The translations under genes and the position numbers were made by a program. The notes below the pieces were generated by a model that was not told the DNA's origin, made no database searches, and was given only the letters and a program-made list of their open reading frames with translations. Shown here in pieces: positions 681 to 54,880 of a DNA stretch of 64,000 bases. Position 1 is the stretch's first letter; each line of letters starts with the position of its first letter. Source of the DNA: Octopus vulgaris. Its lineage: Eukaryota. The stretch covers positions 22,196,001 through 22,260,000 of the forward strand of contig OX597828.1 in NCBI GenBank assembly GCA_951406725.2. Reading direction: 5' to 3'.

Positions 681-758
681 TCCTGAAGAGAAAGCTGCAA
701 AATGGTCTCCTTATTCAATCCGAATTAGGGAATTTGCAGCCTTTGAAACATATGTAGA
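681..758 (+). ncRNA. Hammerhead ribozyme-like motif (type I, PLE-type), stem I truncated
   Basis: CTGAAGA at 683-689; stem II gaaagctgcaaa/tttgcagccttt; GAAAC-ATAT-GTA at 745-756. Lies between inverted ends atatttagtgagggaaga / tcttccctcactaaatat. Confidence 0.6.
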
Positions 759-3700
759 AAATAATAAAAAGGAATTTTGTAAAATCTTCGTTCAGCTCCA
801 TTTCTTCCCTCACTAAATATATAAAACTTCAATTATCCGCACTAAGGCACGTTTGCGATACCCCATGGTCGTAACCTCAACCGTGATTTTTCTGTTGTGA
901 TTTTTGCTACCCAGGTATCGGTTATAATTTGAATAATCCGTAACAAGATAATTCTTTTATCCATTTCAATAAACACACACACACACACACATATATATAT
1001 ATATATATATGTCTGTGTGTGTGTGTGCGTGTAGAAGGTTGAAAAGTAACACACGAGTTAATATGTATATGATAAAGTAGAAATACTACCATCTACCAAG
1101 GCATCACATAAGTAAAAGAAAGAGAGAGAGAGAGAGAGACAAAAAAACGGAAAATCTACCTGTTTGAAGACTATCGAGATTTTAAAAAAAAACATTACAG
1201 TTAGTTTGTCCTCAATTTAATTGCTTTTCTTGCTTTAAAAGCCGAAAAGGCTGAAACCGGTACTAAAATGTTCTTCATGATGAAATTATTTTAGCATTTT
1301 CTACTTTGTCTAATTTTCCCGAAATATATGTATATGAACATGTGGAACCGTTTATCCGGGCATGTTTGTCTTCTCACTCCATTTTTCTCTCTCTATCTGT
1401 TTCTTTCGCCATTGCCTGAAATAGAAGTACGTAACGTCAAAAGTCACGTAACGCCAAAAGATTTTGCCCTTTTTCTGAGCGTTTAAACAAGTAGAACTTG
1501 CTTCCATAATTTCTCTCAGCGTTGTGATCATTCTATTCTTTCTTATAATTCTGATCTATTTATCTATCTGTCGGTCTATCTGTCTATCTATTTATCTATC
1601 TATCTATCTATCTATCTATCTATCTATCTATCTATCTATCTATCTATCTACCTACATATATATATATATATATATATATATATATATATACATACATACA
1701 TACATACATACATACATACATACATACATATATATATATATATATATATATATATATATATATATATATATATATATATATATGTATATATATATATTTA
1801 CGTATACAAGATTGACTTGGGTTTTACAAGCATAAATATGCTCTCTAATTCCCATATTGTCTTCACAAAACGTAACCGTCAATACATGTTATATAGAAAT
1901 TGCAACTCAACCTTACACACACGCACACTTAGAAGCATACACAAAGTACATGCCTACATTTAGACACAGACACATACACAAACGCACGAACACGACTCGC
2001 AAATATATACACACAAACACACGGAAGTACATATTAGCGAAAGATTAAATTGAATGTAAAAATTATGAAAATTGACAACATTTTGTGAAGGTCTGAATAA
2101 ACGTTTTTGAATGTATTGCATTGATCACGTGTGTGTGGTGTGTTCCTATGTCAATTTTGGTGCGAGTAATTCGATGAGCGTGTGTGTTTGTGTATGTGTG
2201 CATGTGTGTGTGTGTGTTTGTGCGATTGCTTTTGTGTGTTTTACTGGTTTGTGTGAGTTATAAAATGTCGCAGGAGTCCTTTCAAACTTTATTACTCAAT
2301 AAAGAATAGCTGTTTATACAGTATTAATCTCCACGTAACAGAAATTACAATACTGACACGGAATTCATGTGGTTTTATTGTTCTATATAGAAATAAATGT
2401 ATAGATTGAAATACAAACATGCAGACATAGTCGCATGCACATACACATACGCACACAAACACTCACACACATATGTAGATATGTATATGTATATATATAT
2501 ATATATATATATATATATACATACATACATACATACATACATACATACATACATATATATAAATTCATATATATATATATATATTTACATTCTTATATAT
2601 ATATACATATATATATTCATATATATATATATATATATATTCATAAATATATGTATATGTATATATATATAAATTTACACATGCACATACACACATATTT
2701 ACACATGCACATACACACATACACACTTGCTTAAACATGTGCACTCATGTGTACCTGCGATTGGATACATATATTTATATAAAAATAAACATATATATAC
2801 ATGCTTACATACATATATATCTTTCTCTATATATACATAAATACTTGCATATATATATATATATATATATATATATATATATATATATATATATATATAT
2901 ATATATATATACACACACACATATATATATATATATATATATATATATATATATATGCATACACAAGTATAAATGCATGTGCGCGTATGCGTGTATAATT
3001 CTAATGTTCACACGTACACAGGCAAATATTTTGCAAATTGAACTAAATTATACGTGATGCGCATATATATTTAAACACAAATACACACAAACACACACAT
3101 ACGCGCACACACATACACTCACATGTATATATATATATATATATATATATATACATGCATATATATGAAGTTCAAACAGACACAGGAGCGCGCACAATTG
3201 CACACTATTATTTATATATGCACACCCTGCATAATTAGGTTCACCCTCCATAACATGTGCACATGTTTACCGTAGCTTTATACATAGACACATATAGATA
3301 CACACATACATACATACATACATACATACACACATACATACATGCATATATATATATATATATATATATATATAATATTCTATATATATGGATTTGTGTG
3401 TATATATATATATATATATATATATATATATATATGATTTTATACAATCTAAGAAACACAGGTTATTCAATGCGTATGCGTATGTACTTACACGCGTGTA
3501 TATATACGCAAGCTTATGTGCATGTGAGTGTTGATATGTCTGTGTTTATATATGAATTAACGGGTAGAAATATGCACAACATCAGTTGAACTTTTATACT
3601 ATGTGCATACGCTATTGCTCGTAATAATTTGACATGAACATATGTATACACAAATATGCATATATATATATATACGTATATGTGTGTGACTGTGTGCGTA

Positions 3701-4369
3701 TGTGTTAATACATAAATATATATTTGTGTATACATAAATATATACTCATATTACATAATATTGTAAGCTAATATACCTAATCTCGATTGTAAACTCCCAA
3801 GGTAAACTCCGCTTAATAATCATTTGAAATTTTATATGAACACCTATAGATGTCGAAATTATTTGAAACTATCTATCTCTAACATTGCAAATATCCTTAC
3901 GGTGCGTTCATATTGCTCTCCTCCTCCTCCTCCACTTTGATGTTTTCATTGTTGTTCGTTTTCTCCTCCCGTTTTTTTTCTCCTCCTTCCTTTCTCTTCA
4001 TCCTCCACCTCCTACTTTACTTCGTACATCTACTTTCATCCTCTTTTTTTCTCTCCTACTTTACTTACTCCCGTCCTACCCCCTCATTCTTCACTCTTCC
4101 CACTCTTTTTCTCCTTGGTCTCCTTTTCCTTCACCTTTTCTCCTCCTCCTCCTCCTCCTATCCTTCTTCTCCTCCTCCATCTAATAAGATAATTCTCAGT
4201 TACTCTTTCTGTTGGAGCAGACAAACGAATCCGCTTTCTAACACAATCTATGTAATACGGCATAATATCAGATACATTTTCAATGCTTTCCGTTAATTTT
4301 ATTAAACAATGCATCATGTTCTTCCAAACAATATTCATAAGTAATATCTTATAGTTTGTATTGTATATC

Positions 4370-4760
4370 ATTTTAATCGTTGTCTTAGTGAAATCGTGAC
4401 ACTCCGTCGGTTACGACGACGAGGTTTCCAGTTGATCCGATCAAGGAAACAGTCTGTTCGTGATATTAAAATACATGTGGCTGAGCACTCCACAGACACG
4501 TCTACCTTAACGTAGTTCTCGGAGAGGTTCACTGTGACACAGAGTGTGACAAGGCTGGCCCTTCGAAATATAGATGCAATAGAAACAAGAAGAAAGTGTG
4601 AGAGAAATTGTGGCGGAATAGTACAGCAGGGTTCGCCACCACCCTCTGCCGGAGCCTCGTCAAGCTTTAGGTGTTTCCGCTCAAAAAACACTCACAACAC
4701 CCGTCTGGTAATCGAAACCGTGATCCACGAGGCCGCTGCCCAAACCATTGGGCTATAGCG
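4370..4760 (-). mobile_element. tRNA-headed SINE (family C)
   Basis: The minus strand starts gcccaatggtttgggcagcggcctcgtggatcacggtttcgattacc and is homologous to the + strand copy at 50095-50390 (aaaacacctaaagct...ccctgctgtact). Confidence 0.65.
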
Positions 4761-4884
4761 CTTCCTTTAGTGATATATACATCATTTCCAGTGCTTAATC
4801 TTAAGTTTACATGTCGATAAAATTTTATGATTATTAAACGTAAGGGCAGGCAAGGTTGCGTGGTATGAGGTTTGCTTCACAACC

Positions 4885-53300: not shown

Positions 53301-53775
53301 ATATATATATATATATATATATATATATATATATATATATATATATATATATATATATATATATATATCCGCGGAATCCTCCTTACTCTAGAAACCTCTT
53401 AAAAGTATGACCCTTACCTAAATTACAATAGGAACGAAAATCAACATAAAGCCACGGAATCACAAGTTACAAACGGTTCAACGTCCAAGGGCACATCTTC
53501 AGCAAGAAATTTTATAGACCTGCTCAAAAGTTGTTCCTCACCAAGTGAGAAACCTTCGAATGGGGAACTGTTTCATCAATTAAATCGACACAGTATTTAA
53601 CTGTTGCTATATTTTGCTACTAAACATGAAAAATGTGTGTGCGGTCAACTAGAAAACTAGAAAATACCTCAGGGTGTGATGAAGGCGACGTCATTGCTAC
53701 GGAGATACTTTCAATGAGGAATAGCAAACGTTCACCGTGCAGCCCAGAGTACGATAAAGTCATGGTACTGCAGTC

Positions 53776-54005
53776 GGGCGAGCTGGCAGAAACGTTAGCA
53801 CGCCGGGCGAAATACGTAGCCGTATTTCGTCTGCCGTTTCGTTCTGAGTTCAAATTCCGCCGAGGTCGACTTTGCCTTTCATCCTTTCGGGGTCGATTAA
53901 ATAAGTACCAGTTACGCACTAGGGTCGATATAATCGACTTAATCCCTTTGTCTGTCCTCGTTTGTCCTCTCTGTGTTTAGCCCCTTGTGGGTAGTAAAGA
54001 AATAG
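53776..54005 (+). mobile_element. SINE family B
   Basis: Near-identical to 36945-37176. Confidence 0.85.
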
Positions 54006-54620
54006 CTACTGCAGCCGATTGTGATGAGCGAACGGAAGAGCTCAACTGAACCAACGATTTCTATTACATTGATGCTAAACTGAAGTATCCTAAAAGCTCA
54101 GCGGTTAGAATCACTCAGCTTTATCAACAGAGTAACTGCAAAGCATACAGAGCGTTGGCGTCCATATTTATGCAATCAGCTAATGAAAGATTATTTATGA
54201 CTTAAGTTTCCAATTCGCAGAATTGGATGGCGATTGTCACGGGAATGCGCATAATCAGCTTGACCGAATATACATTTATTTCTTTCAGCCAGCCATCATG
54301 CTAGAGCACCAAATTTGAAGGGTTTTAGTCGAACAAATCAACCCCTGGACTTATTCAATATAAGCCCAATACTTATTCTATCAGAAACTTGCGCCGAACC
54401 ACTAGCTTACGGGGTCGTAAACACACAAACATCGGTTGTGAAGCAATGGTGGAGGGACAAACACAAACAGAAAGTCACACACATACAAACCACACCACAC
54501 CACACTTTCATATAAATATTTACAACCAGATAGGCTGGTCCTGACACTCCGGCTCTGTCAGCTTCATCGTCGCAATACATATATATATATATATATATAT
54601 ATATATATATATATATGTAT

Positions 54621-54880
54621 CTTGTTGTATTTGGGGATGGTCATGTTGCCAGTTGAGTCAATAAAACAAACGCACTATATATATGGTGTTAAATTGCTTC
54701 AGGTTTTATTTTATGTATTACATTAATCGCATTTCAGCCAGAGTTCTTTCTTCTCCTCATCAGTGGTCCTTTGCTTTCGTCCTTCTTATTTGTGTGTCTT
54801 TCCTTACTAACGATCGGCCATATACAGTGCATATGTTTTATTAGCTAAACTGGCAATATGACCATTCCCAGATACAACAA
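54621..54880. mobile_element. Fold-back element (~65-bp arms) in a (TA)n tract, degenerate CTGATGA...GAAA in the spacer
   Basis: ttgttgtatttggggatggtcatgttgccagtt is mirrored by aactggcaatatgaccattcccagatacaacaa. The minus strand has CTGATGA near 54760. Confidence 0.55.

What the first reader, a model, noticed from the sequence alone, without database searches (positions are those of the whole stretch)
681..54880. Dispersed non-autonomous fold-back elements carrying hammerhead ribozymes whose 3-8 core pair covaries
Seen: at least nine hammerhead-shaped motifs from sequence-unrelated families (681, 5239, 5762, 8687, 13745, 24198, 31893/31945, 33004 half, 41962). Most have stem I, a 7-nt core, stem II, GAAA, a palindromic mini stem III and NUH. 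Cores read CUGAAGA, CUGAUGA, GUGAACA, UUGAAAA and UUGAAGA, so positions 3 and 8 stay complementary while the other core positions are mostly fixed. Known: C3-G8 pairs in the active hammerhead fold, and Penelope-like pseudo-LTRs carry minimal hammerheads with palindromic stem III that cleave as dimers. Inference: this genome hosts several short non-coding ribozyme-bearing PLE derivatives (retrozyme-like) under selection for cleavage, and some use non-canonical cores that a CUGANGA search would miss.
Basis: partly seen in the sequence, partly recalled or inferred. Interest (0 to 1): 0.85.

Follow-up and report, generated by a model that had tools for sequence, protein, structure and literature searches.

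The report
Penelope ribozymes with swapped catalytic pair
The ribozyme-shaped motifs are real and are mostly the cut-off, often folded-back ends of protein-coding Penelope-like jumping genes; three sister families use three different base pairs at a key position of the ribozyme core, which likely reflects selection to keep the ribozyme fold, although self-cleavage is untested.

Summary
Most motifs are real. Eight of the nine listed sites belong to repeat families with a type I hammerhead fold; 8687 is unconfirmed. With positions 3 and 8 left free, a descriptor found 21 motifs in 574 kb, all Watson-Crick at 3-8 (controls 0-1). The 'non-autonomous retrozyme' reading fails where testable: four families (5239, 24198, 31893, 54763) are ends of RT + GIY-YIG Penelope-like elements (PLEs), one with an intact 1,309-codon ORF between two hammerheads. 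The fold-backs are ordinary truncated, inverted PLE insertions. Three sister families (ORFs 49-57% identical) carry C3-G8, U3-A8 and G3-C8, with compensatory stem II changes. U3-A8 in PLEs is published. I did not find natural G3-C8 (6,024 genomic matches), fixed U6 (8,304) or fixed C9 (3,302) in the papers I could read; one key paper was unavailable. 'UUGAAGA' is a decayed U3-A8 copy, and 681 and 5239 are related. Cleavage is untested; 43 of 47 fragments span the cleavage site. The scan made a similar call on another genome (e1-9995956). Verdict: new variant of a known kind.

The parts
660..945 (+). PLE end related to family A; hammerhead 681-760 (C3-G8, palindrome ACAUAUGU), 5'-clipped, with a 21-nt inverted arm (660-680 vs 803-823)
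5188..5571 (.). Family A fold-back in (TA)n: left arm with a full hammerhead on - (core at 5315, C3-G8, first stem I pair broken), right arm with the 3' half plus tail; family linked to RT + GIY-YIG coding sequence
5670..5863 (-). Family E end; hammerhead 5762-5799, core CUGUGGA + A (C3-G8, U6), palindrome ACGU; 8,304 exact pattern matches genome-wide; no coding master found
8687..8726 (+). Unconfirmed, possibly decayed motif (CUGAAGA, but GAAU; single copy) in an old inverted repeat (arms 8580-8701 / 8861-9029, 81-87%)
13663..14017 (-). Family D end; complete hammerhead 13745-13836 (C3-G8, long stem II, palindrome ACGAUCGU)
14021..14949 (+). Broken PLE-type RT fragment (34-46% identical to RT pieces of family A and of L177), opposite strand to the family D hammerhead; not shown to be family D's own ORF
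23121..24933 (+). Young host repeat (5' TC, 3' hairpin + CTAG; Helitron-like by recalled criteria) that carries the family B fold-back as a passenger; explains at least 40 copies identical over 321 bp
24121..24440 (.). Family B fold-back; complete hammerhead on - at 24199-24249 (GUGAACA + G, G3-C8, palindrome AAUAUU); right arm lacks the core 5' end and carries the tail that encodes the ORF start
31866..32083 (.). Family C fold-back; hammerheads in both arms (- core at 31926, + core at 31948), UUGAAAA + G, U3-A8, 3-bp stem I
32662..33340 (.). Family G fold-back truncated just downstream of the core; 3' half of the hammerhead at 33000-33020; family core CUGAAGA (C3-G8)
41904..42143 (-). Decayed PLE-type end; motif 41962-41997 reads UUGAAGA, intact family copies UUGAAAA (U3-A8)
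49726..49850 (.). Internally deleted family B remnant without the hammerhead core
54619..54882 (.). Family F fold-back; hammerhead remnant on - (core at 54763, stem II deleted); family core CUGAUGC + G (C3-G8, C9); an intact full-length copy lies in L364

Best explanation
The motifs are minimal type I hammerheads in the pseudo-LTR ends of several endonuclease-positive Penelope-like retroelement families, and the window holds truncated and inverted copies of those ends, likely dead by-products of insertion rather than independent mobile RNAs. Shown: hammerhead, then about 100-140 nt, then the ORF start; insertions stop at two fixed points about 55-60 nt apart inside the first 30 codons; 5' ends and inversion points vary. 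Inferred mechanism: the element's GIY-YIG/RT protein nicks both strands of an AT-rich microsatellite and primes reverse transcription at the two internal sites; each cDNA runs back through the uncleaved (or re-ligated) hammerhead and usually stops near the RNA 5' end; two such cDNAs joined head to head give the fold-back with one short and one long arm. The 3-8 pair is fixed within a family and swapped as a pair between master lineages (C-G, U-A, G-C), most likely because the active fold is needed, with slow cleavage helped by dimerisation through the palindromic stem III and by the element's own protein.
For: Coding links: family B, a 671-codon open RT + GIY-YIG frame ending 996 nt upstream of the hammerhead (L309); family C (L217/L221, GIY-YIG Pfam E 2.5e-6); family A (L043/L225, L047); family F, a complete unit of 4,598 bp, hammerhead - 1,309-codon ORF - hammerhead (L364). 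The F ORF begins with the peptide read in the tails, and B and C tails give homologous peptides (homologue P0066). ORFs: B/F 57%, B/C 49% identical. An alignment of 15 B, C and F copies has no gap in the core; the 3-8 pair is G-C 6, C-G 4, U-A 4 among 14 distinct rows, none unpaired, and two stem II pairs change on both sides. Family purity in the first 100 listed matches, counted by eye: B G3-C8 95, C U3-A8 95, E C3-G8 95, F C3-G8 98. In family E position 7, the free position of hammerheads, reads A 46, G 20, U 19, C 15 of 100 while 3 and 8 stay. Family B architecture: 28 of 29 mapped loci end within 25 nt upstream of the core; 15 of 16 distinct fold-backs have one short and one long arm end. 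43 of 47 fragments found in loci not chosen for their family span the cleavage site, 2 start at it, 2 start downstream. Homodimer folding closes stems I and III for the family D copy and stems I and II for B and C. Literature: inverted 5' copies and tails (PMC8557442); two internal RT start sites in the ORF start, both strands extended, protein-assisted hammerhead, partial rescue by C3G/G8C (PMC11167929).
Against: No cleavage was measured and no read data could show RNA ends. No coding master was found for E, D or 41962; the GIY-YIG frame near family G (L360) is 2.4 kb away and its link is unproven. U6 and C9 depart from the conserved core; changes at position 6 gave low activity (A6C, PMC3088659), and the PAc hammerhead was dispensable for insertion in vitro, so selection may act on folding or protein binding, not on cleavage. 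In the homodimer folds of E and F the hammerhead arrangement was not the minimum-energy structure. Pfam gave no hit for the B and F ORFs; RT identity rests on the YVDD motif, a weak RVT_1 hit in P0001 (E 0.004) and GIY-YIG in the C homologue. Families are related, so the family-level permutation value (2e-5 for 18 families) overstates independence. Core counts come from patterns that fix the flanks and from the first 100 matches on one contig.
Confidence: 0.8

Rival explanations
1. The short copies are self-propagating non-autonomous elements (retrozyme-like) that are transcribed, self-cleave, circularise and borrow PLE proteins.
For: Most family B copies are 145-210 nt with tightly clustered 5' ends; family E copies are short and no master was found; at least 40 copies of the 24198 fold-back are identical; PLEs are proposed to mobilise animal retrozymes (PMC7229834).
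Against: The identical copies share their flanks and ride in a larger host repeat. In the first 100 matches of B, C, E and F, pairs closer than 1 kb are all on opposite strands, none head to tail (read by eye; two same-strand pairs 645 and 894 nt apart occur among longer B copies). Tails are ORF starts; inversion points differ per copy; A, B, C and F have coding masters.
Confidence: 0.12
2. The elements are PLE ends as described, but the hammerhead fold is kept as a protein-binding or dimerisation scaffold and no longer needs to cleave.
For: Fixed U6 (94 of 100) and C9 (96 of 100) in two very abundant families, one with an intact ORF; 43 of 47 fragments span the cleavage site; core mutants did not affect insertion in vitro and no RNA-seq reads ended at the site in PAc; low activity of minimal PLE hammerheads.
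Against: The 3-8 pair forms in the catalytically active fold and positions G8; compensated double changes at 3-8 in several lineages, a free position 7, and position 17 nearly always non-G (44 of 46 in E; C or U in F) are what selection on catalysis predicts. Re-ligated circles would also give copies that span the site.
Confidence: 0.25
3. The motifs are chance matches in AT-rich repeats, and the fold-backs are MITE-like DNA transposons.
For: Short stems in several window copies; single-strand folding z-scores are weak (-0.5 to -2.4); Rfam gave no hammerhead hit at gathering score in 7 loci; 8687 stands alone.
Against: 21 hits against 0-1 in controls, all paired at 3-8; compensatory stem changes; arms are unequal, vary per copy and sit next to RT + GIY-YIG ORFs.
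Confidence: 0.02

Closest known systems
Minimal hammerheads of metazoan Penelope-like elements (Cervera & De la Pena 2014, PMC4209133)
   Same: Type I topology, short stem I, palindromic or absent stem III, extra nucleotide between 9 and 10.1, G10.1-C11.1, many families per genome, mostly solo truncated copies, opposite-strand pairs 100-700 bp apart, and U3-A8 covariation (about 1,300 hits in Schistosoma mansoni).
   Different: The cores I read in its Fig. S3 text are CUGANGA, UUGANAA or one UUGAAGA; none has G3-C8, U6 or C9, and no cephalopod is listed. Here three sister families carry three different pairs.
Poseidon PAc of Anolis carolinensis (Frangieh et al. 2024, PMC11167929)
   Same: Hammerhead at the pLTR-ORF junction; insertion ends at two sites inside the ORF start (tail); AT-rich target; uncleaved RNA as template.
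   Different: In PAc the ORF starts inside stem II and G3-C8 is a laboratory double mutant; here the start codon lies 135 nt after core position 3 (family F), the tail is about 55-60 nt, and G3-C8 is the natural state of family B. Clade placement was not tested.
Natural hammerhead core variants (Perreault et al. 2011, PMC3088659)
   Same: Natural U3-A8 covariation; a natural change at position 6 (A6C) with low activity.
   Different: The section read names U3-A8 and A6C as rare variants, not G3-C8, A6U or A9C fixed in thousands of genomic copies.
Animal non-LTR retrozymes (Cervera & De la Pena 2020, PMC7229834)
   Same: Type I hammerheads in short, AT-rich genomic repeats.
   Different: Retrozymes are non-coding head-to-tail repeats of 150-450 bp with canonical hammerheads, expressed as circles; these are inverted or solo ends of coding elements with minimal hammerheads.

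Membership tests
EN+ Penelope-like element | Single ORF with RT followed by a C-terminal GIY-YIG endonuclease | tested here: met
   Families A, B, C, F: L364 intact ORF with YVDD at 935 and VVYSIRC...YVGET at 1207-1229; L309; GIY-YIG Pfam E 2.5e-6 for C. Not found for E, D, 41962; unproven for G.
EN+ Penelope-like element | Pseudo-LTRs from tandem or partial-tandem units, each with a hammerhead | tested here: met
   L364: two same-strand hammerheads 4,598 bp apart around the ORF.
EN+ Penelope-like element | 5' truncation, adjacent inverted copy, tail at one end | tested here: met
   20 of 29 mapped B loci have an adjacent inverted segment (one more call was a low-complexity match and was dropped); two end points near +122 and +185; same in A, C, F.
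EN+ Penelope-like element | RT groups with telomerase-like PLE RTs in a tree; clade assignment | not tested
   No tree built; 281 homologues at E <= 1e-20, nearly all unnamed; no informative PDB match.
Minimal type I hammerhead ribozyme | Core 3-9, GAAA, NUH and stems I-III in type I order, 3-8 paired | tested here: met
   met at family level for A, B, C, D, G, 681 and 41962; E departs at position 6 (U), F at position 9 (C); not met for 8687.
Minimal type I hammerhead ribozyme | Palindromic stem III that allows a dimer fold | tested here: met
   Perfect palindromes in A, B, C, D, E, G, 41962; F has AGAACU, not a perfect palindrome; dimer energies favour pairing by 1.8-10.8 kcal/mol but give the full hammerhead arrangement only for D.
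Minimal type I hammerhead ribozyme | Site-specific self-cleavage 3' of NUH | not testable with these tools
   Only contigs were available; genomic 5' ends do not pile up at the site (2 of 47).
Non-LTR retrozyme | Non-coding unit with no ORF of its own | tested here: not met
   A, B, C and F are parts of coding elements; open for E, D, 41962.
Non-LTR retrozyme | Head-to-tail repeats of 150-450 bp | tested here: not met
   No same-strand pair within 1 kb among the first 100 matches of each of B, C, E, F.
Non-LTR retrozyme | Abundant circular RNA | not testable with these tools
   No raw RNA reads were offered.

The most novel reading that the evidence does not exclude
This genome holds the first natural G3-C8 hammerhead family, and a clade of autonomous Penelope-like elements has run through three of the four Watson-Crick pairs at 3-8, while two of the most abundant families fixed U6 and C9 cores that should be crippled; all still cleave in vivo because the element's own protein completes the active site, making PLE hammerheads protein-dependent ribozymes with a relaxed core.
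Probability: 0.3. Interest if true: 0.7.

Novelty: new variant of a known kind. Interest (0 to 1): 0.45.

Why it matters
Why PLEs keep a hammerhead is open: it was dispensable for insertion in vitro and cleaved only with protein (PMC11167929). Three sister families with C-G, U-A and G-C at 3-8, one with an intact ORF, are a ready-made natural series to test whether cleavage is what is selected and whether the protein rescues weak cores. In practice, CUGANGA descriptors miss four families with 1,600-8,300 exact matches each, so hammerhead counts in such genomes, and statements that some PLE groups lack hammerheads, may be underestimates. The elements themselves are ordinary PLE debris.

Tried and rejected
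Rfam on the window: the 150 listed of 501 matches were microRNA models hitting microsatellites and hairpins; the other 351 were not shown. Rfam at gathering score on 7 family loci: 0 hits. The repeat finder was swamped by microsatellites. The idea that the 24198 fold-back moves as a fixed unit (40 identical copies) was rejected: the copies share flanks inside a larger repeat. The GIY-YIG frame upstream of family B in L118 was a different host element; the true B ORF came. The RT fragment at 14021-14949 is only 40% identical to the one beside family D in L158, so it is not assigned to D. Twelve further stretches gave no ORF for family E. Sequencing runs: the look-up was mis-aimed at mostly flank, and no RNA holder is on record; laying four contig sets on a family B copy showed family B sequence in runs only guessed to be RNA and says nothing on ends, strand or level; its one use was a recurrent loose end that led to the upstream junction. 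Whether the family B 5' hot spot is a transcription start or a 3' splice site is unresolved: it falls at a CUAAC...pyrimidines...YAG, but no shared upstream exon is seen in 17 junctions, and family C stops at a CAG without a pyrimidine tract; 684 matches run past it against 6,024 core matches (different patterns). A3-U8 was not seen in 574 + 849 kb. The descriptor needs A9 and a perfect palindrome, so it misses family F. PDB search uninformative. Lunse et al. 2017 is not held and was not read.
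Full report
Setting. The window is G000:C15:22,196,001-22,260,000 in a 2.8-Gb, microsatellite-rich animal genome. The best protein match to one element's ORF is labelled Octopus vulgaris by its source, so an octopus is likely.

1. Observation. A strict descriptor found three complete hammerheads in the window and four once position 6 was freed: cores at 5793, 13831, 24242 and 31926, all on the minus strand. 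The sites at 681, 5239, 33004 and 41962 are clipped or mutated copies of families whose intact members pass. 8687 lacks the fourth letter of GAAA and returned only itself. With 3, 6, 7 and 8 free, 574 kb (window plus 51 stretches not chosen for hammerheads) gave 21 hits, every one Watson-Crick at 3-8: 15 C-G, 4 U-A, 2 G-C; reversed sequence gave 1, ten shuffles 0-1 each, and the two shuffle hits were unpaired. Two pairs of hits (L233, L258) lie close together and may be single insertions.

2. What the families are. Family A (5239; 2,356 first-look candidates) consists of 5'-truncated pieces in (TA)n with a fixed 3' end and variable inversions; long copies run into RT and GIY-YIG coding sequence. 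681 is a 68% relative. Family B (24198) has 6,024 exact matches to a 22-letter pattern with 3 and 8 free, 95 of the first 100 G3-C8; long copies carry an RT + GIY-YIG frame ending about 1 kb upstream. The 40 identical copies of the window's B fold-back are passengers of a Helitron-like repeat at 23121-24933 (Helitron criteria recalled). Family C (31893) has 1,600 matches, 95 of 100 U3-A8, one compensated C3-G8, and a GIY-YIG ORF upstream. Family E (5762) has 8,304 matches, U6 in 94 of 100, position 7 spread over all four bases; look-alikes with A6 and the same stems exist (L240, L246, L254); no ORF was found. Families D (13745) and G (33004) have canonical CUGAAGA cores with long stems II. Counts among the first 100 matches were made by eye from the listings.

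3. The covariation. B, C and F are sisters: ORFs 57% (B/F) and 49% (B/C) identical, homologous tail peptides, and hammerheads that align without gaps through the core. The 3-8 pair is G-C, U-A and C-G; two stem II pairs also change on both sides; 97.6% of cells pair, against 10-61% for slid controls (rows are related, so this is no probability). At least two double substitutions at 3-8 are needed in this clade. Across 18 families seen, 13 are C-G, 4 U-A, 1 G-C. In 24 of 30 B copies chosen by an upstream motif and parsed, loop II falls into length and sequence variants while 21 of 24 keep the core unchanged.

4. Mechanism. Shown: insertions end at two points about 55-60 nt apart, inside the first 30 codons of the ORF; 28 of 29 mapped B loci begin within 25 nt upstream of the core; 15 of 16 distinct B fold-backs pair one short with one long end, and their inner junctions differ; 43 of 47 fragments span the cleavage site. 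Inferred, following the in vitro work on PAc: the protein nicks both strands of an AT-rich target and starts reverse transcription at the two internal sites; the cDNAs run through the uncleaved or re-ligated hammerhead, mostly stop near the RNA 5' end, and are joined head to head. Short 'elements' are then run-off products of coding masters. Selection on the hammerhead acts in the masters, not in these copies. Cleavage, probably slow, dimeric and protein-assisted, is the likeliest reason for keeping the 3-8 pair, but U6 and C9 leave room for a scaffold role.

5. What is known. Cervera & De la Pena 2014 (PMC4209133; read: parts 1-2 of 4 of the text, parts 1-2 of 3 of the supplement as machine text, figures not seen) already report minimal PLE hammerheads, palindromic stem III, the extra nucleotide, opposite-strand pairs and U3-A8. 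Craig et al. 2021 (PMC8557442; passages) describe inverted 5' copies and tails as typical. Frangieh et al. 2024 (PMC11167929; parts 1-2 of 4) give the two RT start sites, protein assistance and C3G/G8C rescue. Perreault et al. 2011 (PMC3088659; passages and section 8) report natural U3-A8 and A6C. Passages only: PMC8495972 and PMC3884650 (G3-C8 as a laboratory variant), PMC6765202, PMC2377424 (internal promoter and intron), PMC6155905, PMC6962438 (235 Rfam hammerhead matches in giant squid), PMC7229834 (retrozyme definition). Searches turned up no natural G3-C8, U6 or C9 family and no octopus PLE hammerheads; the library lacks most subscription papers, and Lunse et al. 2017, which by recall describes a very large set of small PLE variants, could not be read. 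The claim of novelty for these cores is therefore provisional.

6. Verdict. Real hammerhead motifs, real 3-8 covariation, but in the ends of ordinary coding PLEs, and the principle is published. New are the G3-C8, U6 and C9 cores at thousands of copies and the three-pair series in sister families. New variant of a known kind; interest 0.45.

Noticed in passing
L364:2978-7576 (G000:C1:59,392,948-59,397,577, minus strand): Intact full-length family F element: 1,309-codon ORF with an asparagine-rich insert, flanked by two hammerheads, in a partial tandem; a candidate active PLE.
   Followed up: partly
window:23121-24933 and 24934 onward: Helitron-like repeat (TC ... hairpin CTAG) followed directly by the 5' end of a second copy; a young subfamily carries a PLE fold-back to at least 40 places.
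   Followed up: partly
L118:1470-1500; family B junction: Family B 5' ends pile up at a CUAAC / pyrimidine tract / YAG motif 22 nt upstream of the core; family C ends pile up at a CAG 12 nt upstream. Transcription start or 3' splice site is unresolved.
   Followed up: partly
window:18352-22162 (+): LINE with an ORF1-like frame (Myb/SANT-like and CCCH hits, weak) and an 876-aa AP endonuclease + RT frame.
   Followed up: no
window:1188-1335 (+): Diverged (70%) relative of the 41962 family with the core region deleted.
   Followed up: no
window:17178-18265: AT-rich minisatellite cluster with units of 64, 87 and 105 nt.
   Followed up: no
L233:8667 and 9029, L260:8152, L166:1145, L157:665: Further U3-A8 hammerhead families; in one, position 7 reads A, C or U (7 copies) while U3-A8 stays.
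   Followed up: partly
window:49231-49287: A 30-nt tandem repeat whose minus strand contains CUGAAGA; not examined as a hammerhead.
   Followed up: no
window:13169-13283: Second, shorter piece of the family D 3' region about 400 nt from the main copy.
   Followed up: no
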